A stretch of DNA of 64,000 nt, from positions 1,472,001-1,536,000 of the forward strand of contig CAWFGO010000001.1 in the NCBI GenBank assembly GCA_963815455.1, in the 5' to 3' direction. Positions 8,917-23,236 of the stretch are shown here, one piece after another (position 1 is the first letter of the stretch; every line of letters begins with the position of its first letter). The stretch comes from an uncultured Verrucomicrobiae bacterium (GTDB taxonomy: Bacteria > Verrucomicrobiota > Verrucomicrobiia > Chthoniobacterales > UBA10450). The translations under genes and the position numbers were made by a program. The notes under the pieces are model-generated. The model saw nothing but the letters and a program-made list of their open reading frames with translations, was not told where the DNA came from and ran no database searches.

Positions 8917-9012
8917 GTCTAACGAGACAGAGATAAGCCACGGCAGGGTGTCGTGGCAAACACACTGAACGCATTTCGAAATGAAGCCGTTGGCTTCATC
9001 GATTTGTTAGAT
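8917..9012 (-). repeat. attC
   Basis: Plus strand GTCTAAC...GTTAGAT, imperfect palindrome. Confidence 0.9.
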
Positions 9013-9454
9013 GGTCTGGTCTGAAGACGTGTCGGGTAAGAGAGCCGGTGAGACAAGTAGCACCGCCGACAAGTGCGGCTATGCCACAAAACTCCCAAGC
9101 ACCGTATGACCAAGAGCCATCGCCTGGATACGCTAGGAAAACGCCTGTCATGATGAGAAATCCTGCAGTCGCCCCGCAGGCGGTGCAAATGGGCCAGTGC
9201 CACAAAGAGGATGATGAGGGCACAAAGAGGTAAAGAGGAATCAGAACGAAAAGCCACACGGGAATGATAAAGTATGCCATGAACCAGCTCGTCGCTATCG
9301 TACTGCCGAACACTAAGCCCACATCCAGCGCGTGGCGCTGCCGAATCGCATCGACGAAGTAGGTGGACTCGAGAGCTACGAGCGTCACCACCCAGCCGGC
9401 AAGAACCGCAACAAGCGTTCCAACGAGCTGCTTGAAGATGGAGCGTGCGACCAT
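8996..9454 (-). CDS. Cassette 25: membrane protein (copy of 19241-19699)
   Basis: ATG overlaps the GTTAGAT core; about four hydrophobic segments. Confidence 0.8.
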   Translation of the reverse strand: MVARSIFKQLVGTLVAVLAGWVVTLVALESTYFVDAIRQRHALDVGLVFGSTIATSWFMAYFIIPVWLFVLIPLYLFVPSSSSLWHWPICTACGATAGFLIMTGVFLAYPGDGSWSYGAWEFCGIAALVGGATCLTGSLTRHVFRPDHLTNR

Positions 9455-9576
9455 CTAACGAGACCAAGCTCAGCGGCGGCTACCAGGAGCGCGGCTGAAA
9501 ATCTCTGGAACTGTTTTAATCATGACAAAATATGAACGCACAGCGGTCCGCCGTTCGCTCCATCGCATGGTTAGAT
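9453..9576 (-). repeat. attC
   Basis: ATCTAAC...GTTAGAT. Confidence 0.9.
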
Positions 9577-9579
9577 GAT

Positions 9580-10011
9580 TTAATGATTCTCACCATGAAT
9601 TTCTTTTCCAAGTTTTTCTCCCAACGCACGGCCTTGCGCTGCCGAATCGACGAGCTTCTGATGCGTCTCAGTATCTGTAGAAACCAAATCGTCGCTCGCC
9701 GTAATCCCAAACGAATCGATGACAAGATCCTTCCGCCGATCCTCGAATAACAAAACTGTAGTGTAGCTCGATGTCGGACTCTCGGTCAGCGTAACGGAAT
9801 ATGGAAACTCGGCGGACACATCGAGTGACGAAATCTTTGCGTCTTTGACGGCAACCAAGACGCGCTTGTGTGCTGCAGCTGATATGATGAACCACGCGGG
9901 ATGCCCTTCCATCCGATGGGCCGCTGTCAATTTGAGATCACTGCGCTGATCGCCAGCGAGTGCGAATTGGCCGGTGATGACGAAGAGGAAAACGAGAACG
10001 CGCGCTATCAT
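9580..10011 (-). CDS. Cassette 24: secreted hypothetical protein (copy of 19825-20256)
   Basis: Signal peptide ending ALA; ATG in the core site. Confidence 0.8.
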   Translation of the reverse strand: MIARVLVFLFVITGQFALAGDQRSDLKLTAAHRMEGHPAWFIISAAAHKRVLVAVKDAKISSLDVSAEFPYSVTLTESPTSSYTTVLLFEDRRKDLVIDSFGITASDDLVSTDTETHQKLVDSAAQGRALGEKLGKEIHGENH

Positions 10012-10133
10012 CTAACGAGCACAAGCTCAGCCACCGCTGGCGGGAGCGAGCTTTGCTGCGGATTTTAGTGTTGAAGTCGTCGAAAATCTACTCATCGGAA
10101 CGGCCAGCGGTTGGCTGGAGCGTTTGGTTAGAT
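10010..10133 (-). repeat. attC
   Basis: ATCTAAC...GTTAGAT. Confidence 0.9.
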
Positions 10134-10136
10134 CGG

Positions 10137-10442
10137 TTAGCGTCCTGGCTCTGCAATGACTTTCATGTTGTTGACCTCCACAATGACTTTCTTGTCGTTG
10201 ATCTGCCATTTCCCTTTGACGTGCTCTACCAGGTAGCCGTTCGGGCCACGAACGTCGACGTATATATAGTCGCTGGCCAATTGCTCATATGATAGGATTG
10301 CGGCCGAGGTCTTGGCGTGGATAACGCGGCTGATCTCGGCAATGTCAGTCGCTGAGATTCCGTGAAGTCGAGCCACTGTAGTCGCGCACGATGTGAGCAC
10401 CACTGATCCAATAATGGCCGCAACGCAGAGGGTGGTGTTCAC
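10137..10442 (-). CDS. Cassette 23: putative lipoprotein
   Basis: Lipobox LTSC after a hydrophobic leader. Confidence 0.75.
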   Translation of the reverse strand: MNTTLCVAAIIGSVVLTSCATTVARLHGISATDIAEISRVIHAKTSAAILSYEQLASDYIYVDVRGPNGYLVEHVKGKWQINDKKVIVEVNNMKVIAEPGR

Positions 10443-10443
10443 G

Positions 10444-10566
10444 ATCTAACGAGAACAAGATGAGCGACGGCGGACGAGGGCGCGCATCGCTCGGAGTGAG
10501 AGTGGGGAAGTCATCTTAAATGTGAACGCACAGCGGTCCGTCGTTCGCTCCATCGCATGGTTAGAT
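10444..10566 (-). repeat. attC
   Basis: ATCTAAC...GTTAGAT. Confidence 0.9.
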
Positions 10567-10845
10567 CTTACGAGATAATTGCTCCTTCTTGTCGAGTCGT
10601 TCGGCAAGTTTCTCTTCGCGCCTCAGCCCCTTCTCCATACGGGGGAGAAACACGTTCTTCACCCAGTCTTTGTGAGGCGGCAGTTCTTTGCCGTTCCTGA
10701 ATTTGCTATCAAACAGAGGCCGAAAGCCGACCCAATGTGCATGCTTGCCGGTCTCAAGATACTCCTTCGCTTTAGCAATGGCTTGTTCGATCAACTTGAT
10801 GCGTTCAACGGGAGCCATTTGCTTCGTGTTCAGTCTAAACGCCAT
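10561..10845 (-). CDS. Cassette 22: small basic cytoplasmic hypothetical protein
   Basis: ORF fills the cassette; stop lies in R''. Confidence 0.75.
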   Translation of the reverse strand: MAFRLNTKQMAPVERIKLIEQAIAKAKEYLETGKHAHWVGFRPLFDSKFRNGKELPPHKDWVKNVFLPRMEKGLRREEKLAERLDKKEQLSRKI

Positions 10846-10853
10846 AGCTTTGG

Positions 10854-10977
10854 ATCTAACGAGAACAAGATGAGCGACGGCGGACGAGACCGTCCGTCGC
10901 TCGCGGTGAAAGTGTAGAAGTCATTTCAAAAGTGGAGCATGCAGCGGTCCGCCGTTCGCTCGATCGGATGGTTAGAT
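10854..10977 (-). repeat. attC
   Basis: ATCTAAC...GTTAGAT. Confidence 0.9.
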
Positions 10978-11334
10978 CTAGTGGTGCTGCCGGTCGAACT
11001 CGTGAAACTGCTTCGTGATATCAAAATAGACTTTATATTGTTTGCCACGCATTCGGAATGTGAAGCAATCGTAATATCTGTCCTCTTTCTCGTGCGCAAT
11101 TAAGGCGTGATCCTCGCCGACATCACTCACAGGCTGGCCAAACGCAAAGTGCTCAGGGAAATGCTTCTCCAGATACTGGCGCTCCCAGTCGTGATAATGC
11201 GCGTAATCGACCGGAACCACGACTGCCCTTGCCTCACTTGAGCCGTCTCGTGCGGATTCGCCCGCATGCACGGAGGTGACGCAGATATGCGAGAGAAGAG
11301 CCAAAGCGATTAAAAGAGCTGGAGTCGTGCGCAT
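10978..11334 (-). CDS. Cassette 21: secreted hypothetical protein
   Basis: Signal peptide ending VHA; fills the cassette. Confidence 0.78.
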   Translation of the reverse strand: MRTTPALLIALALLSHICVTSVHAGESARDGSSEARAVVVPVDYAHYHDWERQYLEKHFPEHFAFGQPVSDVGEDHALIAHEKEDRYYDCFTFRMRGKQYKVYFDITKQFHEFDRQHH

Positions 11335-11337
11335 AAG

Positions 11338-11461
11338 ATCTAACGAGACAGAAGTGAGCTACCGCCACCGAGGGCGAGCGGTGCTCGAAGTGAAGATGTT
11401 CTGGTCATATCAAAAAGGGATCGCACAGCGGGTGGCGGTTAGCTCGACTGATTGGTTAGGT
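11338..11461 (-). repeat. attC
   Basis: ATCTAAC...GTTAGGT. Confidence 0.9.
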
Positions 11462-11998
11462 CTTCTTCGGTTTGTGCAACATGGCTACTGCGTCCTTCGG
11501 CATGAAAGTCCAACCAATCAGTTTGCCGCGGTGAAAAACTCGCACAGCGATGAAGTCATCTGGAACGTTCCAAGGGCGCTTCTCTGGACGACTGGGAAAG
11601 TAGTCTGATTTGTCTGGATGTGCGGCTGAGGAAATCTCGACTGCGTCCGGGGGCAGCTTGGGATTTGGAGTGAACGGGTCATCCATCTTCTTTGCAGGTT
11701 CCCCCCACTGAAGCGTGTCATAACCTTTGAATACGCCACGCTCGTATGTGCGCACGAGATGATGGGTAACAGCTTTATCTTTGTGTTCGTTTTCTCTCTT
11801 TATCTCCGCTTCTTTTGCGGCGTCGTAATGAGGATCGCCTGGCTTCGGTAACTGCCAAGGTGTGGATGTCGCTGGCGGATCATTTCGCTTCAACTCGATG
11901 CTGTCCGGCGGCAATCTGTCATCGCCCACGACGGTTTGGGCGCACGCGTACTTGAGCAGTGCTGCGATGATGAGGGTGACGAAGAGTGTTGCTTGCAT
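11456..11998 (-). CDS. Cassette 20: secreted Pro-rich hypothetical protein
   Basis: Start MQATLFV just after the core; stop in R''. Confidence 0.75.
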   Translation of the reverse strand: MQATLFVTLIIAALLKYACAQTVVGDDRLPPDSIELKRNDPPATSTPWQLPKPGDPHYDAAKEAEIKRENEHKDKAVTHHLVRTYERGVFKGYDTLQWGEPAKKMDDPFTPNPKLPPDAVEISSAAHPDKSDYFPSRPEKRPWNVPDDFIAVRVFHRGKLIGWTFMPKDAVAMLHKPKKT

Positions 11999-12000
11999 AG

Positions 12001-12109
12001 ACCTAACGAGAACAAGATGAGCCACCGCGCGAATTACGAGTGGCGTTCATAAGGATGGAAAATCTAGGCATACCGCTGGTCCGCGGTTGGCTCGATCGCT
12101 TGGTTAGAC
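12001..12109 (-). repeat. attC (short-loop variant)
   Basis: ACCTAAC...GTTAGAC. Confidence 0.88.
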
Positions 12110-12113
12110 GATT

Positions 12114-12557
12114 TCATTGTGCGAGTGCGGCGACCGCCTCTTTCCTGACTTTCATCGCACGCTTCTTAGCCTCTGCTTCGCCATATTTGTTGACGGAAAA
12201 GACCCTCACCTTTCTGTTGCCACGACGGTCCGTGAAGTTGGCGCGCCAGAAGTCGTATGGTTTGCCTTTTGAGATTGTAGTGATGCGTGCAACCCCCACG
12301 ATACCAGAGGGCGACTTACGCCGCTCGACCTCGCAAGAATCGCGACGGGACATGCGAGGGAAAGCTTCGCGAATCTCTCGCCAGCATTTTTTCGCCTCTG
12401 CCAGCGCAGCGGCTTCGCTAGCGTATTTTTTGAACGGGAAATACTCTTGAAACATTGCGCCCTGTCGCAGGAGCTTTACGCGGTAACATGCGACGCTCTG
12501 GTCTGGATAAAACATGCGCTGCAAACCGCGAAATCCAGCGACCGTTGTAGTGGGCAT
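12114..12557 (-). CDS. Cassette 19: AP2-domain-like DNA-binding protein
   Basis: SGIVGV...WRANF...VFSVNKYGEAEAKKRA, plus a similar N-terminal unit FPFKKYASEAAALAEA. Confidence 0.7.
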   Translation of the reverse strand: MPTTTVAGFRGLQRMFYPDQSVACYRVKLLRQGAMFQEYFPFKKYASEAAALAEAKKCWREIREAFPRMSRRDSCEVERRKSPSGIVGVARITTISKGKPYDFWRANFTDRRGNRKVRVFSVNKYGEAEAKKRAMKVRKEAVAALAQ

Positions 12558-12567
12558 ATGCGCAATC

Positions 12568-12691
12568 GTCTAACGAGACGGAGCTGAGCCACCGCTGGCG
12601 ATGGCGAGCATGGCAGACACGAGGAACTGTTTCATAAAATTATATGTGCGCATCGCGACGGCCGGCGGTTGGCTCGAGCGATTGGTTAGAT
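12568..12691 (-). repeat. attC
   Basis: GTCTAAC...GTTAGAT. Confidence 0.9.
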
Positions 12692-13032
12692 GATGTCGAT
12701 GCGTCAGCACCAGCTTTTCTTTTCGCTTTCCACTCTCGCAGGAAGGCGATGAGAAACCCGAGCCCAAGAAACGAAGCGATGCAAATGACGACGATGGTGA
12801 TGGCGAATCGTGTTGCGGGAAGATAGCGGCCAACCAGACGACTAAGGCCGGACAGGATGATAAAAATAGTGAAATAAGCGCCTGCATATCGAAATAGCAT
12901 CTGCGCAACGGACTCTTTCTTATCATGGATCTCCACGATAGGACCTTCTGGCGAGCCATAGAGATCTTCGCGCTGCTCTCGACGCCAAAGCTCGAATCTA
13001 TAGCGAAAGCGCTCGATGAGTTCGCTCTTCAT
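12640..13032 (-). CDS. Cassette 18: 2-TM membrane protein reading into its attC
   Basis: ATG in the core; stop inside the attC loop. Confidence 0.75.
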   Translation of the reverse strand: MKSELIERFRYRFELWRREQREDLYGSPEGPIVEIHDKKESVAQMLFRYAGAYFTIFIILSGLSRLVGRYLPATRFAITIVVICIASFLGLGFLIAFLREWKAKRKAGADASTSSNQSLEPTAGRRDAHI

Positions 13033-13154
13033 CTAACGAGAACAAGATGAGCTACCGCTGTCTACAGCCAGCTCCGCTCGAAGTGAACATAGTTTAGTCA
13101 TGCAAAAATGTAAGCCCGTACGGGACAGCGGTTAGCTCCATCGTCTGGTTAGAT
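13031..13154 (-). repeat. attC
   Basis: ATCTAAC...GTTAGAT. Confidence 0.9.
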
Positions 13155-13167
13155 GTCTTTGGTGTGC

Positions 13168-13491
13168 TCACACTTTGTCGCGGCGCAGACGATCCACTGC
13201 GGTGAAGCAACCGAAGTAGATAACACTGTAGAGTAAAGCAGGTGCTCCGAATGCGATAACTGTGCCTGCAGCGATAGACAAGGTACTCTCGCCTACCAGA
13301 TGAATGAATGCCGCGCCGGCGGAAAACCCCCAGTCGGAGAAAGGTGATAGTGCGCGACTGAGCGGTGTATCGGGGCCATTATGGTCGAAATTTCGCGCGG
13401 TCGTCCACGTGCCGACCATTAGCGCGGCGAGTGTGACGCAACCCAATACCACGCTCCACGCTACTCGACGAATTGGGAAACGCGCTGGCAT
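13168..13491 (-). CDS. Cassette 17: membrane protein
   Basis: ATG in the core; hydrophobic segments. Confidence 0.75.
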   Translation of the reverse strand: MPARFPIRRVAWSVVLGCVTLAALMVGTWTTARNFDHNGPDTPLSRALSPFSDWGFSAGAAFIHLVGESTLSIAAGTVIAFGAPALLYSVIYFGCFTAVDRLRRDKV

Positions 13492-13614
13492 CTAACGAGA
13501 ACAAGATGAGCGACGGCGGACGAGGGCGAGCGTCGCTCGGAGTGAAAGTGTAGAAGTCATCTCAAAAAGTGGAGCGTACAGCGGTCCGCCGTTCGCTCCA
13601 TCGCATGGTTAGGT
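13490..13614 (-). repeat. attC
   Basis: ATCTAAC...GTTAGGT. Confidence 0.9.
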
Positions 13615-13631
13615 CTGGTGTGAAGATAACA

Positions 13632-13958
13632 CTAGAACTCATAAGGCGGACCGGCGGCATGAACAAACGGCTTGCCGCGCGACTCCGGATCGTAGCCAGC
13701 AGTGATCGCCTGCTGAATGCACTCGACGAGTCGGCGATTGGGAAGGCGGAATCGCTGATGCTGCGGCATATCTCTATGGGATCGGTCGATGGAGAATTCT
13801 AGCAGTAATTGGCGTCGGCTTGCCTCTGTGGGCTCGACAAGAATTGCTAATCCACGTAAGCCGATTTGCTCGTGACGTGATGTGGCCCAAGTCGGTTGCC
13901 GGTGGACACGCCACCGATACTCATCATCTCCCACCGTGATTGTCCCCGACGATTTCAC
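13632..13958 (-). CDS. Cassette 16: cytoplasmic hypothetical protein
   Basis: ITVGDDEYRWRV...AITAGYDPESRGKPF; AGGAG upstream of the GTG. Confidence 0.78.
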   Translation of the reverse strand: MKSSGTITVGDDEYRWRVHRQPTWATSRHEQIGLRGLAILVEPTEASRRQLLLEFSIDRSHRDMPQHQRFRLPNRRLVECIQQAITAGYDPESRGKPFVHAAGPPYEF

Positions 13959-13972
13959 GAAGCGCTCCTAAG

Positions 13973-14095
13973 ACCTAACGAGAACAAGATGAGCGACGGC
14001 GGACGAGGCCGCGCGTCGCTTGGATTGAAAGTGTGGAAGTCATCTCCAATGTGAACCCACAGCGGTCCGGCGTTCGCTCCATCGCATGGTTAGAC
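13973..14095 (-). repeat. attC
   Basis: ACCTAAC...GTTAGAC. Confidence 0.9.
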
Positions 14096-14380
14096 CTGTC
14101 GTGTGTTCGCATGTGTCCGCCTCAGCCTGATCGCTCTGACTAAGCTGAGAATAGTAAACCAAACGGCTACTTGCGCGAGCAGCATCAACGCCGCCTGCGG
14201 TGGACTCTGCGCGGGAATCCCCTCGGGCGGCAGGTGTGGAAGTGCGAGCAATATGCCTGGCATGTTGATGGCGAACACGAGCGGCGAGAACGCCGATTGC
14301 CAAGGCGCTTCCAGCAGCGCCGGCGCGCCACAAAGGAGCGCAATCCCGGCAGCGAGAATGAATCTTCGGGAGCGTGTCAC
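14090..14380 (-). CDS. Cassette 15: small membrane protein
   Basis: Hydrophobic; stop in R''. Confidence 0.72.
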   Translation of the reverse strand: MTRSRRFILAAGIALLCGAPALLEAPWQSAFSPLVFAINMPGILLALPHLPPEGIPAQSPPQAALMLLAQVAVWFTILSLVRAIRLRRTHANTRQV

Positions 14381-14395
14381 AGCGTTCGGCTCGAG

Positions 14396-14519
14396 GTCTA
14401 ACGAGACGGAGCTCAGCCACCGCTGGCGGCAGCCAGCTTTGCTGCAAAGTTTAATGTTGAAGTCATGTGAAAGCTGGTCATCGGAACGGCCAGCGGTTGG
14501 CTGGAGCGATTGGTTAGAT
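14396..14519 (-). repeat. attC
   Basis: GTCTAAC...GTTAGAT. Confidence 0.9.
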
Positions 14520-14978
14520 GTCTCCTATCTCGTCGGCGTGCTCCATTAAAGTCTTCGATGGGACGTCACCTTTGGAAAACAAGACTTTATCTTTTCGGAC
14601 GAGCGCGACACCTACAAATCGATTGTTTCCCTTGTATTCGATGTCTGGTGTCAGATCGCCCGGACCAACTTTGCTGTGCTCCGGAGGCACATGAATATAC
14701 ATATACCAAACCTGCACACCGCCGCGGAGGCGAATCCTACCGCTGCAATGCTGGCTGCTACAAATCACTCTCAAATGATCTAGGTCGCTCTTGGTGCTGA
14801 GAAATGGCGTGAGTCGCGACCAGAGGTCATACTCCTTGGTTACCGGATAACCGATAGCCTGGCGGCAGATGCGCTTAATCTGCGCGACATCACTCGATGA
14901 CAACGCTCGATCTGCTGCGTGCGAGGAGTGCGTTGCTGACGCCGAAAGCAGGAACATCAGGATGAGGTGCCGAAACAT
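14514..14978 (-). CDS. Cassette 14: secreted hypothetical protein
   Basis: ATG in the core, signal peptide, stop in R''. Confidence 0.8.
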   Translation of the reverse strand: MFRHLILMFLLSASATHSSHAADRALSSSDVAQIKRICRQAIGYPVTKEYDLWSRLTPFLSTKSDLDHLRVICSSQHCSGRIRLRGGVQVWYMYIHVPPEHSKVGPGDLTPDIEYKGNNRFVGVALVRKDKVLFSKGDVPSKTLMEHADEIGDI

Positions 14979-15100
14979 CTAACGAGACAGAAGTGAGCTA
15001 CCGCCGCCGAGGGCGAGCGGTGCTCGAAGTGAAGAGGTTCTAGTCATGTAAAAATGTGAGCGCACGACGGGTGGCGGTTAGCTCGACTGATTGGTTAGAC
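14977..15100 (-). repeat. attC
   Basis: ATCTAAC...GTTAGAC. Confidence 0.9.
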
Positions 15101-15103
15101 GTC

Positions 15104-15502
15104 TCAGTCCGCGACATAGACTTTCTCAACAGGACCGTCCGGTGCCGCGAGAACACAATGGAGGAAATGTGGCCACGGACGGAAGCCAAGCTTCTTTCCC
15201 ATGTACACCTGGTAAGTAATATAGTACGCACCATGAAAATAAGGGTCCTTCGTGAAATCGGGAGGTCCAAGTAAAGCCGTGACCTCTGCTCGGCTGTGGC
15301 CGATCAGGATATGCTTATCGAGCAAGTCTGGAACCATAGTGCCGCGAAGCTTCGCATCGCCAGCGCGCCAAGCCTCCGCAGCAAACGGTTGACGCTTGTA
15401 AGAAAAATCAGTGACATAAACAAAGAGACCTCCGAGCAAAAGTCCAGCTCCGACCACAACAATTGCGATGACGATTGCAGGCGTCTTTAGGAGTTTGCGC
15501 AC
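15104..15502 (-). CDS. Cassette 13: membrane-anchored SmpA/BamE-like domain protein
   Basis: N-terminal TM; LIGHSRAEVTALLGPPD. Confidence 0.65.
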   Translation of the reverse strand: MRKLLKTPAIVIAIVVVGAGLLLGGLFVYVTDFSYKRQPFAAEAWRAGDAKLRGTMVPDLLDKHILIGHSRAEVTALLGPPDFTKDPYFHGAYYITYQVYMGKKLGFRPWPHFLHCVLAAPDGPVEKVYVAD

Positions 15503-15510
15503 GAGGTTAC

Positions 15511-15633
15511 GTCTAACGAGAACAAGATGAGCCACCACTGGCGAGAGCGCGCGTGGCGGCGGGATGTGAGGTTGGAGTCACGGAAAACTTGGGCGTACGC
15601 CGGCCAGTGGTTGGCTCCATCGCATGGTTAGGC
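15511..15633 (-). repeat. attC
   Basis: GTCTAAC...GTTAGGC. Confidence 0.9.
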
Positions 15634-15671
15634 GGTTCGCGTGGATGGCCCTGTGCATGCTAGTAAAATCT

Positions 15672-15908: not shown

Positions 15909-15924
15909 GACTGGCGTGCTTACC

Positions 15925-16049
15925 GCCTAACGAGAAAGAGCTGAGCTACCGCCACCTAGGGCGAGCTCTGCCCGAAGTGAGAGTGATTTACTCATCTGAA
16001 AAATGTGGACGCACGGCGGGTGGCGGTTAGCTCCAGCGATTGGTTAGGC
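15925..16049 (-). repeat. attC
   Basis: GCCTAAC...GTTAGGC. Confidence 0.9.
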
Positions 16050-16439: not shown

Positions 16440-16441
16440 GG

Positions 16442-16564
16442 GCCTAACGAGACGGAGCTGAGCGACCGCCACCGGCGGCGAGCTTTGCTTTCGCTGGAAG
16501 TGTTTTAGTCATTTGAAATATGGACGCACAACGGGTGGCGGTTCGCTCGAGCGATTGGTTAGGC
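16442..16564 (-). repeat. attC
   Basis: GCCTAAC...GTTAGGC. Confidence 0.9.
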
Positions 16565-16571
16565 CCCTTGG

Positions 16572-16955: not shown

Positions 16956-17110
16956 AGGGCCTAACGAGAACAAGCTGAGCGACCGCCGCCGAGAGCGAGC
17001 GCGGCTTCAACTGAAACGGTTTTAATCATCTGAAATGTAAACACGCGCCGGGCGGCGGTTAGATGCCATGAAGGGTTGAAAAGCGTGGGCAAAACGGGCA
17101 CACGCGTTGT

Positions 17111-18439
17111 ATGAAAAACAAAACAACAACAACCCTTCATGGCGGAGAGAAGTTTAACAATTCAAGCGCCCCTGGCAATGGGGCAGTGAGGCGGGTGTGG
17201 AAGCTTGGGCTGGACGTGGACCTGCGTTTTATGGTGGTGGCGATCCAGTGTGGGCGGGGAACGATTGGGCCGGCGCGGAAGTATACTCGCGAGCAGTTGC
17301 TCGAGTGGGTGAAGCAAAAAGTGGGTGTAGGCGATGTGGTCTACGCGGTGTGGGAATGCTGCGGATTTGGTTATACGCTGCACGAGCAATTAACTCAAGC
17401 GGGAGCAAAGAGCGTCGGGACGACCCCGATGCGATTAAATTTGGAGCGGCGGCGGAAGAACGACCGGATGGATGCGCGCGAGTTGTGTGTGCGATTGAGC
17501 CGTTACCTGGATGGGCAGAGAGAGGAATTAAGACCAATCCGAATCCCGAGCCGGGGGGAGCAACAACGGCGGGAGCTGGGGCGGCAGCGGGAGTTTTGGA
17601 AACGCCAAGTGCGGCGGCTGGAGAATCACGGGCGAGCGCTGCGGATCGAGCACGAGCATGAGACGCTGGAGGCTGGGTGGGGCGGACCGCGGAAGTGGAA
17701 ACGAATCGGGCCGCAGTGCAGCGAGTTTGTGCGCGGGCAGCTTGAACCGGTCATGGAACAGATCCGAGCGGCCAAAGCGCAATTGGATCGGTTGACCCAG
17801 GAGATTGAAGCGCTGGTGAGGGAAGAAAAAATCCCGACGGGATTGGGTGCGCTAACGGTATCGCTGATCGACGGGGAGGTGTGCGATTGGCAACGCTTCA
17901 AGCATCGCAAAGCCGTGGGCAGTTACACTGGGTGTTGTCCTAGCGAATACAGTTCGGCCGGGATCCAGCGTTTTGGAAGCATCGACCGGCACGGCAACAA
18001 ACATTTGCGCACGCTCCTGGTCGAGGCGGTCTGGCGACTTCTTCGCTGGCAGCCTAACTGGCATGCTCGTCAGAAATATCTGGAGAAATTAAGGCACGGC
18101 GCCTCGCTGAAAAAGAAAATCGCAGTGGCCCTGGCCCGGCAACTGGCCATAGACATCTGGCGCTGGCGAACCGGCCGGGCCAGTGCCGCCGAACTGGGCT
18201 GGAGCCTGTCTAACATTCCAGGTGAAACCCTAACAAACAGATTTAACCCTCAGCTTTTACGAAACGGAACTTCCAAGCAAAGTTTGATTTGGCCGCAGGG
18301 TGGAACGCTGCTCGGCGCTGGAGCTGGTCCTTTGAAACGAAGGGATCATCGCTTAGATGGGGCGCGTTCCGCCCAAAGCGGCTTCCCAAAGTCAGGCACG
18401 ACATCATGGGCTCGCACAACAAAAGCGATGCTCGAATAG
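17111..18439 (+). CDS. IS110-family DEDD transposase/recombinase; last ~75 codons overlap the 3' non-coding region
   Basis: LGLDVD, WECCG, RKNDRMDA (DEDD); SYTGCCPSEYSSAG (catalytic Ser); GNKHLRTLLVEA; VALARQLA. Confidence 0.93.
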   Translation: MKNKTTTTLHGGEKFNNSSAPGNGAVRRVWKLGLDVDLRFMVVAIQCGRGTIGPARKYTREQLLEWVKQKVGVGDVVYAVWECCGFGYTLHEQLTQAGAKSVGTTPMRLNLERRRKNDRMDARELCVRLSRYLDGQREELRPIRIPSRGEQQRRELGRQREFWKRQVRRLENHGRALRIEHEHETLEAGWGGPRKWKRIGPQCSEFVRGQLEPVMEQIRAAKAQLDRLTQEIEALVREEKIPTGLGALTVSLIDGEVCDWQRFKHRKAVGSYTGCCPSEYSSAGIQRFGSIDRHGNKHLRTLLVEAVWRLLRWQPNWHARQKYLEKLRHGASLKKKIAVALARQLAIDIWRWRTGRASAAELGWSLSNIPGETLTNRFNPQLLRNGTSKQSLIWPQGGTLLGAGAGPLKRRDHRLDGARSAQSGFPKSGTTSWARTTKAMLE

Positions 18440-18495
18440 GAGCTGGTGACTCGCCCCGGCGAGACAACACGACAGAGGGAAGCTGCACCCTGCGG
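18293..18495 (+). ncRNA. Putative bridge/seek RNA
   Basis: Stems 18298-18308/18364-18374 and 18378-18387/18477-18486; loop GCGCTGGAGC (18315-18324) complementary to the target flank; ATAGGAG (18436-18442) matches the predicted circle junction. Confidence 0.7.
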
Positions 18496-18616
18496 ATCAA
18501 ACCACTAAAGATTGGAAAAACCGGGAAAGGAAAAAACTAAAGAAAAACAAACAATACCCGTTCCACGGTTGACAACCCTCATAGGCGCTCCAGCGCTTGG
18601 TTAGACCTATTCGTGA

Positions 18617-19159
18617 TCACGGGGTGTGCGCTGTCTTGGGCTTTACCGAGACGCTCTGAAACAAGCTTGAGCAAGGAGCGCCGCTCAGCGCCGCTTCCTT
18701 CGGGGAGAGATACATGACGACTCTCAAATCCGGCTTCATGAGAATGTAGTCGATCCGTTGAAACTGCGTCTTCAGAGCGACCACAAAAGAATGCGCTCGG
18801 CAATCACCGACCGAATAATCACGCTCCGAAATGAGCCTCGCGCCGGGCTCTCGTAACATATTGTCTTTGGCTTCGGCGAACGCACCGACAGCGCGAGTCT
18901 GCCACCATGCCTCTGGCATGACAGTGACTTTTGTTGAGATTGTGTCCGCTTTGCTCTGCCAGGCTTTCTCTTCGTAGGCGACGTTGCCCATCGGAGTCGG
19001 AAAATAGCCAGTGTTCGATGCTGTCTGCTTGAACGCGGGCGGTATCTTGAGCGTTAACTCGAACGGTGATTGCTGGAATGCTTCGGCTGGCGGCTTTTCA
19101 CCTGCCGCGAAAGCGGCAGCGGCAAAGGCGAGGAGTGTAATGGTGATGATCGATTTCAT
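18617..19159 (-). CDS. Cassette 9: secreted hypothetical protein
   Basis: Start MKSIITITLLAFAAAAFA. Confidence 0.8.
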   Translation of the reverse strand: MKSIITITLLAFAAAAFAAGEKPPAEAFQQSPFELTLKIPPAFKQTASNTGYFPTPMGNVAYEEKAWQSKADTISTKVTVMPEAWWQTRAVGAFAEAKDNMLREPGARLISERDYSVGDCRAHSFVVALKTQFQRIDYILMKPDLRVVMYLSPKEAALSGAPCSSLFQSVSVKPKTAHTP

Positions 19160-19161
19160 AG

Positions 19162-19257
19162 GTCTAACGAGACAGAGATAAGCCACGGCAGGGTGTCGTG
19201 GCAAACACACTGAACGCATTTCGAAATGGGGCCGTTGGCTTCATCGATTTGTTAGAT
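19162..19257 (-). repeat. attC
   Basis: Near-identical to 8917-9012. Confidence 0.9.
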
Positions 19258-19699
19258 GGTCTGGTCTGAAGACGTGTCGGGTAAGAGAGCCGGTGAGACA
19301 AGTAGCACCGCCGACAAGTGCGGCTATGCCACAAAACTCCCAAGCACCGTATGACCAAGAGCCATCGCCTGGATACGCTAGGAAAACGCCTGTCATGATG
19401 AGAAATCCTGCAGTCGCCCCGCAGGCGGTGCAAATGGGCCAGTGCCACAAAGAGGATGATGAGGGCACAAAGAGGTAAAGAGGAATCAGAACGAAAAGCC
19501 ACACGGGAATGATAAAGTATGCCATGAACCAGCTCGTCGCTATCGTACTGCCGAACACTAAGCCCACATCCAGCGCGTGGCGCTGCCGAATCGCATCGAC
19601 GAAGTAGGTGGACTCGAGAGCTACGAGCGTCACCACCCAGCCGGCAAGAACCGCAACAAGCGTTCCAACGAGCTGCTTGAAGATGGAGCGTGCGACCAT
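19241..19699 (-). CDS. Cassette 8: membrane protein
   Basis: Same protein as 8996-9454. Confidence 0.8.
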   Translation of the reverse strand: MVARSIFKQLVGTLVAVLAGWVVTLVALESTYFVDAIRQRHALDVGLVFGSTIATSWFMAYFIIPVWLFVLIPLYLFVPSSSSLWHWPICTACGATAGFLIMTGVFLAYPGDGSWSYGAWEFCGIAALVGGATCLTGSLTRHVFRPDHLTNR

Positions 19700-19821
19700 C
19701 TAACGAGACCAAGCTCAGCGGCGGCTACCAGGAGCGCGGCTGAAAATCTCTGGAACTGTTTTAATCATGACAAAATGTGAACGCACAGCGGTCCGCCGTT
19801 CGCTCCATCGCATGGTTAGAT
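19698..19821 (-). repeat. attC
   Basis: Near-identical to 9453-9576. Confidence 0.9.
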
Positions 19822-19824
19822 GAT

Positions 19825-20256
19825 TTAATGATTCTCACCATGAATTTCTTTTCCAAGTTTTTCTCCCAACGCACGGCCTTGCGCTGCCGAATCGACGAGC
19901 TTCTGATGCGTCTCAGTATCTGTAGAAACCAAATCGTCGCTCGCCGTAATCCCAAACGAATCGATGACAAGATCCTTCCGCCGATCCTCGAATAACAAAA
20001 CTGTAGTGTAGCTCGATGTCGGACTCTCGGTCAGCGTAACGGAATATGGAAACTCGGCGGACACATCGAGTGACGAAATCTTTGCGTCTTTGACGGCAAC
20101 CAAGACGCGCTTGTGTGCTGCAGCTGATATGATGAACCACGCGGGATGCCCTTCCATCCGATGGGCCGCTGTCAATTTGAGATCACTGCGCTGATCGCCA
20201 GCGAGTGCGAATTGGCCGGTGATGACGAAGAGGAAAACGAGAACGCGCGCTATCAT
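19825..20256 (-). CDS. Cassette 7: secreted hypothetical protein
   Basis: Same protein as 9580-10011. Confidence 0.8.
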   Translation of the reverse strand: MIARVLVFLFVITGQFALAGDQRSDLKLTAAHRMEGHPAWFIISAAAHKRVLVAVKDAKISSLDVSAEFPYSVTLTESPTSSYTTVLLFEDRRKDLVIDSFGITASDDLVSTDTETHQKLVDSAAQGRALGEKLGKEIHGENH

Positions 20257-20378
20257 CTAACGAGAAAGAGGTGAGCGATGGCGGCTGAGAGGGCGCGTGG
20301 CTTGCATGAGAAGGAGTCTAGCTACTCAAAGCGTGGGACACAAGGCCAGCCGCCATTCGCTCCACCGACTGGTTAGAT
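20255..20378 (-). repeat. attC
   Basis: ATCTAAC...GTTAGAT. Confidence 0.88.
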
Positions 20379-20420
20379 GGTTCGCGTGGCATTACGAAGG
20401 ATAATGATAACGGACTCTCA

Positions 20421-20631
20421 TTAGAATGCCCACTTCCCCCAGAACTTCGACACAGCAGAATAACCATCAGCCAAAGCATACGTGAAACGCTGCCGATGAC
20501 GAAGCACAGAAAAGCATGCATAGATGACGATCAGCGGCGTGACCAAAACAAGAAGGACCGGCCATAAAATGAACTTCCAAACGAGGGTGAACACTGCCTC
20601 GACTACCGAACTCAGAGAGTGCCTCGATCAT
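20421..20631 (-). pseudogene. Cassette 6: probably frameshifted small membrane protein
   Basis: MIEAL in one frame; VVEAVFTLVWKFILWPVLLVLVTPLIVIY...KWAF* in another. Confidence 0.55.
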
Positions 20632-20656
20632 GGGTTATCGCGATAACGCTCTCTAC

Positions 20657-20778
20657 ATCTAACGAGACGGAGATAAGCTACGGCCACTGAGGACGAGCGT
20701 CGATCGAAGTGGAAGTGATTTAGTCATTTAAGCGTAAACGCGTAGCGGGTGGCCGTTAGCTTCATCGATTGGTTAGGC
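20657..20778 (-). repeat. attC
   Basis: ATCTAAC...GTTAGGC. Confidence 0.9.
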
Positions 20779-21199
20779 GGTTAAGGTTATCGCGAGCCCA
20801 ATGTCCTGGATCGAGTTCCAACGCGCGGCGGTATGACGACGCGGCATTCTGCGAGTCTCCCAGCTCGTTCTGCGCGTTGCCGAGCGCCGCGAGCACATCG
20901 GCAGAAAGATCAGAGGTGAGCGCTCTCTCAAAGCACGCAATAGCAAGCCGAGGCTCTCCGCGCTGACTATGCTCGAGGCCAAACTGGTAATGGACCTCAC
21001 GGACGTCTTCGGCGGTGAGCCAATCAGGGAGCGGCAGGGCGTAGCACGAATCACACACCGTGATCTCACCCACTGAAGTGTCAATGACTGCACACGGGCT
21101 TGCCGTCTTATCGATGACAAGCGATTCGCCGTCGTCAGTGGTCCAACGCTCCGCTGGCGCCTCTGGAATTTCAGCGCGACAGAGAGAACACGTGTGCAT
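20762..21199 (-). CDS. Cassette 5: CxxC/CxxC Zn-ribbon plus TPR protein
   Basis: CSLC, CDSC; ALGNAQNELGDSQNAASSYRRALELDP. Confidence 0.8.
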   Translation of the reverse strand: MHTCSLCRAEIPEAPAERWTTDDGESLVIDKTASPCAVIDTSVGEITVCDSCYALPLPDWLTAEDVREVHYQFGLEHSQRGEPRLAIACFERALTSDLSADVLAALGNAQNELGDSQNAASSYRRALELDPGHWARDNLNRLTNR

Positions 21200-21202
21200 A
21201 TC

Positions 21203-21325
21203 GCCTAACGAGAATAAGCTGAGCGACCGCCACCGAGAGCGAGCGTGGCTTCGAGTGAAACTGTTTTGATCATCTGAAATGTGAACACGCGCCGGGTGGC
21301 GGTTAGCTCGAGCGATTGGTTAGAT
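21203..21325 (-). repeat. attC
   Basis: GCCTAAC...GTTAGAT. Confidence 0.9.
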
Positions 21326-21341
21326 GAAGTGCGTTGCAAAC

Positions 21342-21681
21342 TCATTGTTTTGTCTCGGCTTCGTAGTGTTCCTGGCAAACTGGACAGTAAACTGCGACCT
21401 CTTTGTCGTGATAATCTGCCGAGCGAGTTCGCTGCTGAAAGTAAACAAGGCTGTTTGGGTATTTCCACTGAGCGCGATAATCTGCTTCACCGGGATCAAT
21501 GGTGCCGCGATCAAAATGACTCCAAGCATAGACGACAGCGCGTTTCAGCGGGACGTGATGAATGGAGCAGACACCCGAAGCCAACGACGCTTTGCGAACG
21601 GAGTCGAAGTAAACTTGATGTTGTGCCTCCGTCGCACACGATGCCAGGAGTACCGGCGAAACAGGCGACCGGGAACTTCAT
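21342..21681 (-). pseudogene. Cassette 4: lipoprotein with CxxH/CxxC motifs, frameshifted in the signal peptide
   Basis: MKFPVACFA from the core ATG, then VLLASCATEAQ...CSIHH...YCPVC in another frame. Confidence 0.6.
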
Positions 21682-21802
21682 CTAACGAGACGGAGCTGAG
21701 CGACGGCCACCGAGGGCGAGCGTGGCTCGAAGGGAAAATGTTTTATCAACTCAAAAGATGAGCGCAGAGCGGGTGGCCGTTCGCTCGAGCGATTTGTTAG
21801 AC
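21680..21802 (-). repeat. attC
   Basis: ATCTAAC...GTTAGAC. Confidence 0.9.
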
Positions 21803-22017
21803 GATTGGCCGTCCATGTGAAATGTGGTAGGAGACCGCAGCCCGAAGACCCATGCACGCGATGACGAGAAATGTCTTCAAATAGCGAGAGTCGCCTAAGG
21901 AATTCGTAAATAGCCAGTGTACGCTCCACGCAGAGAGCCGTCACCAAGGGGTGCTCGGAAGAAGATCGGCAGTGGATGAACAAAATAGCGCCACAACGTA
22001 AAAGTGAATAATACACA

Positions 22018-22254
22018 TCAGTAATGCGGGCCAGGCACGACGGATGCGATAACGCAACAAAGCGATAAGGCGGCAGCAGCGAACAGAGCGATCTCAACGG
22101 AACTGGTGACGACGTATCGCCTCGCAAAGGAGCCGATGAGCGGACTGTAGGTGAATCGGGGCTGAACTGCGTGGGGTATCCACAACGCTTGCTGCACGAT
22201 GGCAATGAGCCAAAACGTGACTGTGAGAATTGTCGCGATGCGGATGATGCGCAT
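22018..22254 (-). pseudogene. Cassette 3: membrane protein, probably prematurely terminated
   Basis: ORF covers only about half of the cassette; hydrophobic coding-like sequence continues after the TGA. Confidence 0.5.
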
Positions 22255-22257
22255 AAG

Positions 22258-22383
22258 GTCTAACGAGACGGAGCTCAGCCGCCGCTCTGGGAGCGAGGCT
22301 GCGCTCCAGTTGAGAATAGACTAATCAAAATCGACATCGACGCGCAACGCCAAAGAGCGGTTGGCTGGAGCGAGTTGTTAGAC
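22258..22383 (-). repeat. attC
   Basis: GTCTAAC...GTTAGAC. Confidence 0.88.
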
Positions 22384-22384
22384 C

Positions 22385-22753
22385 TCATTTCAATATGCCG
22401 CGCTTTCTAAGGAACCAGCCGATGAAGAACATCAAGATCGCGCTCGCGAGTGAAGTGGGAACAATGAGCCTAAGTGGCATATGCTCTCCAAAATAACACA
22501 AGAGTCCGGAGATAAGGAGGCCGACAATGGCAATGGTCCCAAATAACGTCTTACTCACGGGTAAATGAAGAACTGCATGAAGGCAGTTATCGCTCCAACC
22601 AAGAAAGCCAACCCCAATGCACCAAACGAACTGCCTATAAGTCAGGCCGCGAATAAGCTCGGGCCGGTTGCGGGTCCAGAAGTAGGCAAAGGTGGTGCTG
22701 AGCATCAGCATCCCTCCAACGATAAGGTCCGAAATATTTAGCGGATGGCTCAT
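22385..22753 (-). CDS. Cassette 2: 4-TM membrane protein
   Basis: Fills the cassette. Confidence 0.8.
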   Translation of the reverse strand: MSHPLNISDLIVGGMLMLSTTFAYFWTRNRPELIRGLTYRQFVWCIGVGFLGWSDNCLHAVLHLPVSKTLFGTIAIVGLLISGLLCYFGEHMPLRLIVPTSLASAILMFFIGWFLRKRGILK

Positions 22754-22755
22754 GG

Positions 22756-22879
22756 GTCTAACGAGAACAAGATGAGCGACGGCGGACGAGAGCGCGCGTC
22801 GCTCGCAGTGGAAGGGTGGAAGTCATCTCAAAATGTGGATGTGGGGCGGTCCGCCGTTCGCTCCATCGCCTGGTTAGGC
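22756..22879 (-). repeat. attC
   Basis: GTCTAAC...GTTAGGC. Confidence 0.9.
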
Positions 22880-23142
22880 CTTCGGTGGCGAACCCGCTGC
22901 CCGTGTATGCAACCACCAAGATAAATGCACGCAATCACCGCGAACGCCGTCCCGAAAGAGTAGCGAGAGAGCAAGAAGCTCATAAGCGCAAGAGAGACAA
23001 ACAGCGCAATACTAAGAATCCAGAACTTGATCGAAAGCTCGTGGGTCTTCAGTGGAGGGCGTGGTCGGAGCGACTGGCCGCGGAGCCAGCGCAAAGAGAG
23101 AATCGCACCTGAGAGCACCAGCCCTGCGAGCAACCCGATCAC
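22828..23142 (-). CDS. Cassette 1: membrane protein reading into its attC
   Basis: Three hydrophobic segments; start uncertain (the ATG at 23177 is out of frame). Confidence 0.65.
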   Translation of the reverse strand: MIGLLAGLVLSGAILSLRWLRGQSLRPRPPLKTHELSIKFWILSIALFVSLALMSFLLSRYSFGTAFAVIACIYLGGCIHGQRVRHRRPNQAMERTADRPTSTF

Positions 23143-23179
23143 GGCGCATTTAATGAGGTCTGAGAAATCGGACGCATTG

Positions 23180-23236
23180 GCCTAACGAGAATTAGACGAA
23201 GGTTCGTAATTAAAGGCGAACATTTTTTCGTCTAAC
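23180..23236 (-). other. attI site
   Basis: Minus strand GTCTAAT-TCTC-GTTAGGC (L and R boxes), plus an upstream direct-repeat GTTAGAC that overlaps the intI stop. Confidence 0.8.
23182..23223 (-). CDS. attI leader mini-ORF MFAFNYEPSSNSR*
   Basis: Starts 8 nt after the intI stop and ends on the TAG of the attI core. Confidence 0.55.
   Translation of the reverse strand: MFAFNYEPSSNSR

What the first reader, a model, noticed from the sequence alone, without database searches (positions are those of the whole stretch)
8917..23223. Recombination sites encode leader mini-ORFs: a possible translational relay through the whole cassette array
Seen: on the cassette strand, 19 of 25 attC sites contain an ATG/GTG, usually in the loop after a T-rich run, that opens a 15-26 aa ORF ending exactly on the TAG of TCT CGT TAG (the R' core). 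Examples: 22826-22758 MTSTLPLRATRALVRRRSSCSR*, 13560-13492, 10514-10446. Five more are in the same frame but stop at a TGA five codons earlier. The last (21680-21802) is shifted and ends in an ATGA overlap with the next gene. Frame is preserved in attCs of different length (12050-12003, 15 aa; 12635-12570, 21 aa; 20307-20257, 16 aa from a different ATG), while the peptide sequence varies freely. Eight cassette genes start immediately after that TAG (GTTAG-ATG at 9454, 10011, 13032, 13491, 14978, 19699, 20256, 21681), leaving no room for their own RBS. Known: ORF11 in class 1 attI1 couples translation to RBS-less first cassettes. Inference: here every attC carries an equivalent device that unfolds the hairpin and delivers ribosomes to whichever cassette is shuffled next. 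I do not know of this being described as a systematic attC feature. Caveat: the attCs are homologous, so the observations are not fully independent.
Basis: partly seen in the sequence, partly recalled or inferred. Interest (0 to 1): 0.88.

Follow-up and report, generated by a model that had tools for sequence, protein, structure and literature searches.

The report
Selected mini-ORFs inside integron recombination sites
In a family of soil bacteria, the DNA hairpins used to shuffle gene cassettes also carry a short reading frame that evolution keeps free of stop codons while its peptide drifts, most likely so that ribosomes run through each hairpin and let the next gene be expressed.

Summary
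Observation confirmed: 19 of 25 attC sites carry an ATG/GTG frame ending on the core TAG, 5 end at a TGA 15 nt earlier, and 1 is shifted. It is more than shared ancestry. In 720 attC from this genome and relatives, 660 have such a frame, against 58 and 94 in the other frames. In 144 disjoint cross-locus pairs, stop gains were 3 against 27.9±5.0 expected; control frames matched the null and amino-acid change was neutral. The attI sites do the same: 0 of 13 divergent attI have an in-frame stop in the last 60 nt. So the frame is selected and the peptide is not. Best mechanism (inferred; no expression data): initiation without Shine-Dalgarno in the open loop, unwinding of the hairpin, coupling to the next cassette. 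Shielding from Rho or RNases is the main rival. Corrections: raw indels are mostly 1 nt, 'no room for RBS' is weak because the genome barely uses SD, and a continuous relay is not shown. Known anecdotally (ORF-11; Jacquier 2009). This scan noted the same on another genome (e1-7670039). New variant of a known kind.

The parts
23232..24248 (-). Integron integrase, 338 aa, on the same strand as the cassettes, with attI at its 3' end; its stop TAG (23234-23232) lies inside attI
   Evidence: PF00589, PF13495; TIGR02249 454 bits, cut-off 265
23180..23239 (-). attI site (upstream GTTAGAC at the integrase stop; crossover core GTTAGGC, G at 23186)
   Evidence: same layout next to other integrases of the family; identity as attI inferred from position, not tested
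23182..23223 (-). attI mini-ORF, 13 aa, ATG to core TAG (ORF-11 analogue)
22758..22826 (-). attC mini-ORF 22 aa, ATG to core TAG (attC 22756-22879)
22275..22337 (-). attC mini-ORF 20 aa, ends at L' TGA
21678..21749 (-). Shifted attC frame, TTG start, 23 aa, ends in ATGA overlap with ATG 21681
21205..21273 (-). attC mini-ORF 22 aa to core TAG
20659..20727 (-). attC mini-ORF 22 aa to core TAG
20257..20307 (-). attC mini-ORF 16 aa (second ATG position) to core TAG, abutting ATG 20256
19715..19768 (-). attC mini-ORF 17 aa, ends at L' TGA
19164..19244 (-). 96-nt attC, frame from left-arm ATG, 26 aa to core TAG
17111..18439 (+). IS110-family transposase; the element interrupts the left arm of the attC whose core G is at 16965
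   Evidence: PF02371, PF01548 weak; junctions
16961..17029 (-). attC mini-ORF 22 aa to core TAG (intact despite the IS upstream)
16444..16512 (-). attC mini-ORF 22 aa to core TAG
15927..15995 (-). attC mini-ORF 22 aa to core TAG
15513..15581 (-). attC mini-ORF 22 aa, GTG start, to core TAG
14979..15047 (-). attC mini-ORF 22 aa to core TAG, abutting ATG 14978
14413..14466 (-). attC mini-ORF 17 aa, ends at L' TGA
13975..14043 (-). attC mini-ORF 22 aa to core TAG
13492..13560 (-). attC mini-ORF 22 aa to core TAG, abutting ATG 13491
13033..13101 (-). attC mini-ORF 22 aa to core TAG, abutting ATG 13032
12570..12635 (-). attC mini-ORF 21 aa to core TAG
12003..12071 (-). 109-nt attC, in-frame ATGs at 12071 (22 aa) and 12050 (15 aa), to core TAG
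11340..11408 (-). attC mini-ORF 22 aa to core TAG
10856..10924 (-). attC mini-ORF 22 aa to core TAG
10446..10514 (-). attC mini-ORF 22 aa to core TAG
10027..10095 (-). attC mini-ORF 22 aa from an upstream ATG (the usual position reads ACG), ends at L' TGA
9470..9523 (-). attC mini-ORF 17 aa, ends at L' TGA
8919..8999 (-). 96-nt attC, frame from left-arm ATG, 26 aa to core TAG

Best explanation
The attC and attI sites of Chthoniobacterales integrons double as translated spacers. Shown by comparative sequence analysis: a start codon, usually ATG/GTG 63-66 nt before the core, opens a frame that is kept free of stops down to the L' box or the core TAG (supplied by the next cassette), while its amino acids drift neutrally. 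Inferred: on the array mRNA each attC folds into a hairpin of about -43 kcal/mol whose right arm ends at the next cassette's start codon. This organism initiates mostly without Shine-Dalgarno, so start sites must be unstructured. Ribosomes load de novo on the open, G-poor loop ATG, translate through the right arm, melt the hairpin and terminate 0-20 nt from the next start, which is then used by re-initiation or by a new 30S. Because every cassette begins with TTAG, the coupling survives any shuffling. That the frame is translated and selected: about 0.9. That its main job is opening the hairpin and coupling to the next gene: the confidence given here.
For: 660 of 720 attC have an ATG/GTG ORF in the TAG frame reaching the L' box, against 58 and 94 in the other frames; this repeats in each of 16 loci or contigs with 8 or more sites. 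Loop ATGs by frame: 663/65/81, with peaks at 66, 63, 48, 81, 78, 39, 75, 60 and 69 nt. Stop-making changes on spanning-tree edges: 3 vs 36 expected; 3 vs 64.6 with same-column, same-base control; 3 vs 27.9±5.0 in 144 disjoint cross-locus pairs, minimum of 500 simulations 15, control frames 11 vs 15 and 25 vs 31. Depletion holds in 123-, 124- and 96-nt classes, with or without a left-arm ATG. Amino-acid change 0.747 vs 0.754 in the null, P=0.30. ATG66 exchanges mostly with GTG (23 of 41 changes). Length left of the ATG varies freely (52 nt 152 sites, 53 nt 114), while right of it 432 sites are in frame and 33 off, with 41 in-off and only 3 off-off edges. Internal controls: in-frame stops 9 nt before the TAG occur in 7 of 195 sites that have already stopped at TGA and in 0 of 473 others (p=1.7e-4); a 1-nt longer spacer occurs in 42 of 239 GCTGA sites and 2 of 478 others, and 36 of those 42 have an ORF to the TAG. 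attI: 19 of 21 have a start in frame with the core TAG within 120 nt, against 2 and 2; 0 of 13 divergent attI have an in-frame stop in the last 60 nt, against 11 and 11, shuffle mean 8.6. Opening energy ±15 nt: loop ATG 8.5, genome starts 11.1, next-gene ATG 13.1 (10.6 without the left arm) kcal/mol. 136 of 309 cassette genes have their ATG within 6 nt of the TAG, 194 within 20 nt. Precedent in class 1 integrons.
Against: No transcript, ribosome or reporter data. 27% of sites stop 15 nt early and 71 of 720 have no qualifying start. Net indels inside the ORF are mostly 1 nt (3 of 52 are multiples of 3), and off-frame sites are not significantly more often tips (61% vs 52%, p=0.37). The same-column test also falls below expectation in control frames (35 vs 64, 45 vs 77), so its baseline is about 0.55. 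Compensation for a lost main start by another in-frame start is only borderline (p=0.05). The G-poor loop is expected anyway from the known bottom-strand purine skew of attC. Selection on an open frame does not say which benefit is selected. Deleting attC had mostly mild effects on downstream GFP in E. coli class 1 tests. Spanning-tree edges are only an approximation of a phylogeny, and some indels in metagenome-assembled sequences may be sequencing errors.
Confidence: 0.63

Rival explanations
1. The mini-ORF is translated, but mainly to keep ribosomes on an otherwise naked, C-rich, G-poor stretch of about 60 nt, so that Rho cannot terminate and RNases cannot cut. It prevents polarity along the array rather than starting the next gene. 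Not exclusive with the best explanation.
For: All frame-selection evidence applies equally. The loop is C>G (C 0.32, G 0.13), like a rut site (own knowledge). The genome has two Rho-like genes (500 and 456 bits, just under the 509 cut-off). Carvalho 2024 links cassette translation to downstream mRNA level and found that extending translation through a 3' UTR up to attC doubled downstream output (passages). It explains why a stop 15 nt early is tolerated.
Against: It does not by itself explain why the frame is tied to the TAG/L' box rather than any frame (36 of 42 longer-spacer sites still reach the TAG), why short attI frames end on the same TAG, or why gene starts cluster at 0, 4 and 5 nt after the TAG.
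Confidence: 0.2
2. The frame is open because many cassette genes lack their own stop and read through the attC to the core TAG; the loop ATG is incidental.
For: 71 of 309 cassette genes read into their attC, 42 of them in this frame, 39 ending at TAG or the L' TGA; stops are also depleted upstream of the loop ATG (5 vs 27).
Against: 238 of 309 genes stop at or before the R'' TAA. ATG66 is conserved as a start codon. 13 divergent attI sites have no co-oriented gene directly upstream yet keep the frame. Some read-through calls are an artefact of the open frame itself.
Confidence: 0.06
3. Each attC holds a promoter, and the loop ATG begins a leaderless transcript, so the left arm is never in the mRNA.
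For: A T-rich run precedes the ATG; long arrays need internal expression (own knowledge).
Against: TAnnnT lies 4-8 nt before only 14% of loop ATGs; the sigma-70 scan gave 6 sites vs 7.4 by chance, none in an attC loop; no strong leaderless -10 signal before genome starts. Other sigma factors were not tested.
Confidence: 0.05
4. The peptides themselves have a function.
For: dN/dS in this frame is 0.77-0.88, against 0.93-1.31 in the other two forward frames; acidic and aromatic residues are rare.
Against: With a stop-free null, amino-acid change is neutral (P=0.30); lengths run from 13 to 35 aa; no Pfam match above cut-off for 6 of 6 peptides tested; the composition follows the DNA skew.
Confidence: 0.03
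5. Shared ancestry and hairpin constraints alone give the pattern; nothing is translated.
For: All attC are homologous, the TAG is fixed by the core and by my search patterns, and the GC-rich stem has few stops.
Against: Depletion is frame- and strand-specific among new substitutions in the unpaired loop, spread over at least 7 columns, relaxes after an earlier stop, and recurs in attI, which shares only the last ~10 nt with attC.
Confidence: 0.03

Closest known systems
ORF-11 (also ORF-17, ORF-18) in attI1 of class 1 integrons (Hanau-Bercot 2002, seen only as described in PMC8876359, passages)
   Same: A short ORF crosses the crossover point, takes its stop (TAG at positions 3-5 of the core) from the incoming cassette, and its amino acids matter little. 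The window's attI ORF 23223-23182 is a direct analogue.
   Different: ORF-11 has a canonical SD and serves only the first cassette. Here there is no SD (0.7% of loop ATGs) and the device is in attI and in about 90% of attC, so it serves every position. The sequences are unrelated by inspection; homology was not tested.
Short ORFs inside class 1 attC sites (Jacquier et al. 2009; paper not held; seen through section 3.2 of PMC8876359, and passages of PMC11511950)
   Same: The attC hairpin blocks ribosomes; a translated ORF inside attC relieves the block and raises translation of the 3' cassette by termination-reinitiation.
   Different: Described for a few cassettes and called 'anecdotal'; the review has the ribosome passing from the upstream gene's stop to the attC ORF. 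Here it is a family-wide feature with measured purifying selection, in an SD-poor host, with the start in the loop about 50 nt from the upstream stop, which suggests de novo loading.
Translational coupling by RNA unfolding or ribosome scanning (review PMC12548453, passages)
   Same: Upstream translation melts a hairpin that hides the downstream start; coupling was reported at spacings up to +25 nt.
   Different: The upstream ORF is built into a mobile recombination site, not a fixed operon; the review has no occurrence of 'integron'.
Sedentary chromosomal integrons
   Same: IntI (TIGR02249 over cut-off), attI, array of homogeneous attC (mostly 123-124 nt) with GTTRRRY/RYYYAAC boxes.
   Different: In this window intI is co-oriented with the cassettes and attI sits at its 3' end; 8 of 21 platforms found are of this type and 13 divergent.

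Membership tests
Integron / attC array | Integron integrase | tested here: met
   TIGR02249 454 bits vs cut-off 265; PF00589 + PF13495
Integron / attC array | attC with RYYYAAC...GTTRRRY ends, L boxes with an extra-helical base, hairpin | tested here: met
   L boxes paired in the bottom-strand MFE in 625 of 771 candidates; for the one site folded singly, the centroid shows the long stem but the MFE does not
Integron / attC array | One promoterless ORF per cassette, same orientation | tested here: met
   309 of 374 cassettes have a dominant ORF on the cassette strand; promoter scan at chance level
Integron / attC array | Integrase-catalysed excision and insertion | not testable with these tools
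   The two-cassette duplication is indirect evidence only
ORF-11-type translational coupler | Short ORF ending on the TAG of the core supplied by the next cassette | tested here: met
   19 of 25 attC and the attI in the window; 439 of 612 in-frame loop ORFs end on TAG and 171 on the L' TGA
ORF-11-type translational coupler | Peptide sequence dispensable, open frame required | tested here: met
   (evolutionary evidence, not mutagenesis)
ORF-11-type translational coupler | Canonical SD before the short ORF | tested here: not met
   SD-like motif before 0.7% of 299 loop ATGs; host is SD-poor
ORF-11-type translational coupler | Located in attI1 of a class 1 integron | tested here: not met
   The integrase is about 52% identical to IntI1; the ORFs lie in attC as well as attI
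ORF-11-type translational coupler | Translation of the ORF raises expression of the next cassette | not testable with these tools
   needs reporter or Ribo-seq
Leader-peptide attenuators | Conserved control codons or arrest motif in the peptide | tested here: not met
   neutral amino-acid divergence; no invariant residue in the loop part

The most novel reading that the evidence does not exclude
A second, translational code is a general design rule of integron recombination sites, not a quirk of one family: attI and attC across phyla are selected to carry an open frame ending at or just before the core, so that any shuffled order stays translationally coupled. Hints: an unrelated attC family from the phylum of a Pirellulaceae bin has an ATG ORF ending just before the core in 29 of 42 sites (1 and 4 in the other frames), using the left-arm ATG in 93-nt sites and a loop ATG in 92-nt sites; and 2 of 3 distinct class 1 attC seen are open from end to end in the TAG frame. 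Stop depletion was not shown in that second family (6 vs 5.6), and several other short attC had no ATG.
Probability: 0.25. Interest if true: 0.87.

Novelty: new variant of a known kind. Interest (0 to 1): 0.7.

Why it matters
How promoterless cassettes far from Pc, behind strong attC hairpins, get expressed is an open question, and ORFs in attC have been treated as anecdotes. Here one of the abundant soil lineages appears to hard-wire a coupling ORF into both kinds of recombination site, with a clear selection signature. That makes attC a dual-use sequence (DNA substrate on the bottom strand, translated mRNA on the top), predicts that deep cassettes in these arrays are not silent, and gives a precise mutational test. 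It also suggests an order-independent coupler for synthetic cassette arrays and warns annotators that cassette start and stop calls run into attC.

Tried and rejected
RNA runs: no RNA holder listed; no evidence either way, and no reads were laid. Loop promoter / leaderless start: not supported. TAG read-through fusion: rejected because gene starts lie at +4 (51) and +5 (25) as often as at 0 (50). Left-arm ATG as relay entry: no frame preference. Peptide families: no Pfam match above cut-off. Cassette cargo: 3 of 23 proteins had a Pfam hit, uninformative. Viral contigs: 0 matches to the family pattern; 12 integrase loci gave no array in my detector. Five non-Verrucomicrobia bins carrying the attC pattern had no integron integrase over cut-off: mis-binning or transfer, unresolved. 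Class 1 comparison: only 3 distinct attC recovered from 3 plasmid regions, too few to test. Jacquier 2009 was not held. The sORFdb paper mentions DUF3265 but never integrons. No supplements were read.

Full report
What the locus is. The window holds an integron: IntI at 24248-23232 on the minus strand (Pfam; TIGR02249 454 bits), attI at its 3' end, and 25 attC sites down to 8917 on the same strand. Named records that share the attC pattern are mostly labelled Chthoniobacterales, Spartobacteria, Udaeobacter or Verrucomicrobiae. A strict pattern matched 5 of 5 family genomes tested, 24-74 times each with 0 control matches, and 3 of 301 genomes across the phylum, all in the same family. It was not found in the others searched.

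The observation. 19 of 25 attC have an ATG/GTG frame that ends on the core TAG, 5 end at the TGA of a GCTGA L' box 15 nt earlier, and one is shifted. The TAG belongs to the next cassette, because crossover falls between G and TT of the core (review passage). Two cassettes are duplicated (99.7%), and 18 of the 24 starts chosen lie at the same offset, so the window alone is weak evidence.

The larger set. I extracted attC from the genome and about 350 fetched loci: 771 candidates, 726 after requiring 60-140 nt and the YTYGTTAG end, 720 after removing identical inner sequences. Loci of three unpublished genomes and one duplicate locus were left out. The patterns fixed the boxes and the TAG but nothing in the loop. 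Loop ATGs fall 663/65/81 by frame, with peaks at nine different multiples of 3. 660 of 720 sites have an ATG/GTG ORF in the TAG frame that reaches the L' box, against 58 and 94, and every one of 16 loci or contigs with 8 or more sites shows the excess. In the 620 sites of 117-133 nt, that frame is open from R'' to the TAG in 338 and to the L' TGA in 157.

Selection, not just descent. On spanning-tree edges (483 ungapped pairs), substitutions creating or removing a stop in the loop were 3 vs 36 expected in the TAG frame, against 35 vs 21 and 49 vs 49 in the other forward frames. With same-column, same-base controls: 3 vs 64.6, against 35 vs 64 and 45 vs 77, so this test has a baseline near 0.55. 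In 144 disjoint pairs from different loci, with the observed substitutions re-dealt among same-base positions: 3 vs 27.9±5.0 (minimum 15 in 500 runs), controls 11 vs 15.2 and 25 vs 30.6. Amino-acid divergence equals the stop-free null (0.747 vs 0.754, P=0.30). The start codon behaves like one: T and G change at 0.05 and 0.04 per edge against 0.09-0.24 in the loop behind it, and ATG exchanges with GTG 23 times, ACG 8, ATA once. Two internal controls agree. In-frame stops 9 nt before the TAG occur in 7 of 195 sites already terminated at the L' TGA and in 0 of 473 others. A 1-nt longer spacer is found in 42 of 239 GCTGA sites (12 clusters, about 14 tree edges) but 2 of 478 others, and 36 of the 42 have an ORF that reaches the TAG.

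Results against. Net indels inside the ORF are mostly 1 nt: 3 of 52 are multiples of 3 at 80% identity. They are about three times rarer per base than left of the ATG, but that side has a slippage-prone T run. Frameshifted sites exist (33 vs 432 in frame); they rarely neighbour each other (3 off-off vs 41 in-off edges) but are not significantly more terminal (p=0.37). 71 of 720 sites have no qualifying start, and compensation by other starts is borderline (p=0.05). 195 of 720 stop 15 nt early. The G-poor loop is expected from attC strand skew (PMC5027507, passages), so its composition is not evidence for initiation.

attI does the same. The window's attI carries a 13-codon ORF from 23223 to the core TAG, 9 nt after the integrase stop. 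Of 21 attI next to family integrases, 19 have an in-frame ATG/GTG within 120 nt, one has the integrase itself ending on the core TAG, and one is open for 264 nt without a near start; the other frames have 2 and 2. In the last 60 nt, 0 of 13 divergent attI have an in-frame stop, against 11 and 11; shuffles give 8.6 and none of 1000 gave 0. For 8 co-oriented attI (27 nt) it is 0 against 5 and 2, P=0.014. These attI are related to each other (median 43% ungapped identity), so they are not 21 independent trials, but they share only the last few bases with attC.

Mechanism. Only 13% of 267 confident genome starts have an SD-like motif (control 7%), although the 16S anti-SD is intact; 3 of 75 cassette leaders of 10-40 nt have one. 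So missing RBSs are normal here and structure should matter more (own knowledge). The top-strand attC RNA folds at a median -43 kcal/mol (199 sites). Opening ±15 nt costs 8.5 kcal/mol at the loop ATG and 13.1 at the next gene's ATG (first 120 eligible sites; 10.6 without the left arm), against 11.1 at up to 120 of the 267 genome starts and 14.6 inside genes. Among 309 of 374 cassettes with a dominant ORF, the ATG lies 0, 4 or 5 nt after the TAG in 50, 51 and 25. I infer de novo loading in the loop, unwinding of the right arm, and restart at the next cassette. A continuous relay from the upstream gene is not shown: 238 of 309 genes stop at or before R'', about 50 nt and one stem arm away from the loop ATG, and left-arm ATGs are in frame in 136 123-nt sites and out of frame in 105 124-nt sites. 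The two off frames do mostly terminate around the loop ATG (280 and 389 of 620 within 58-72 nt), which would allow hand-over, but the TGA of ATGA partly forces this. A real read-through route exists for 39 of 309 genes. The main rival is shielding from Rho or RNases: two Rho-like genes are present and translation up to attC raised downstream output in E. coli (PMC11511950, passages).

Beyond this family. Among integrase-flanking regions from other Verrucomicrobiota and from the phylum of a Pirellulaceae bin (Planctomycetota, own knowledge), few arrays were detected. One 88-94-nt family (42 sites, mostly genome G351, also G504 and two viral-collection contigs) has an ATG ORF ending just before its GTTGGGC core in 29 of 42, against 1 and 4. 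Sites use either an in-frame left-arm ATG (18) or an in-frame loop ATG (15), both in only 1. Stop depletion was not shown there (6 vs 5.6), and the pattern rests on two main subtypes. Short attC from two other genomes had no ATG. This is a lead, not a result.

What is known. PMC8876359 (passages; section 3.2 in full) describes ORF-11 in attI1 and, citing Jacquier 2009, relief of the attC block by a short ORF within attC. PMC11511950 (passages) calls such cases anecdotal. Jacquier 2009 and Hanau-Bercot 2002 were not read. Searches (listings and abstract starts only) showed no paper reporting a systematic, selected attC ORF or describing these integrons; the library lacks most subscription papers and no supplements were read. 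This scan's notes hold the same reading for another soil-bacterium genome (e1-7670039) and a similar bridging ORF in a phage repeat (e1-6298623); both were seen after my tests had given the result and are not counted as support.

Verdict. Real, selected and family-wide; it works like ORF-11 but is not a member, having no SD and lying in attC as well as attI. New variant of a known kind; function inferred. Interest 0.7.

Noticed in passing
window 17066-18584: An IS110-family element sits inside the left arm of an attC, leaving the mini-ORF intact; IS1111-type elements that target attC are in print (listing only). Its non-coding ends were not examined for a guide RNA.
   Followed up: partly
window about 8100-8470: The array ends at an attC left end followed by a sequence resembling the end of the IS at 18584; probably a second IS insertion or remnant that truncates the last attC.
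   Followed up: no
window 8919-10011 and 19164-20256: Two adjacent cassettes are duplicated at 99.7% identity, 10,245 nt apart, suggesting recent integrase activity.
   Followed up: partly
window 23180-24248; L334, L341, L340, L101, L066; G000 C2 and C3: A group of integrases co-oriented with the array, attI at the 3' end; in L066 the integrase stop is the core TAG and the first cassette's ATG follows directly. Where Pc lies and whether cassettes are co-transcribed with intI is open.
   Followed up: partly
G000 genome: 66 attC-like sites by my pattern, in at least 10 clusters on four contigs, with 3 TIGR02249 matches; many clusters lack a neighbouring integrase.
   Followed up: no
window 21342-21681: ATG 21681 opens 56 aa while an 80-aa ORF lies in another frame of the same cassette; possibly a frameshifted gene.
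   Followed up: partly
window 20653-20658: GTTAG is followed by ATG-TAG, a start-stop minigene, before the cassette's ORF.
   Followed up: no
L536-L538 (class 1 integrons): The three distinct attC recovered are 72, 60 and 57 nt (all multiples of 3) and two are open end to end in the TAG frame; n is too small.
   Followed up: no
G000:C1:648413-649642 and 1665898-1667001: Two Rho-like genes, both just under the TIGR00767 cut-off.
   Followed up: no
window 24486-24697: Two 85-nt direct repeats with hairpins upstream of intI, probably intergenic REP-like repeats.
   Followed up: no
L092, L040, L072, L103, L068: Chthoniobacterales-type attC on contigs of bins labelled Acidobacteria, Pyrinomonadales, Terriglobales or Pirellulaceae that lack an integron integrase over cut-off: mis-binning or cross-phylum transfer.
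   Followed up: partly
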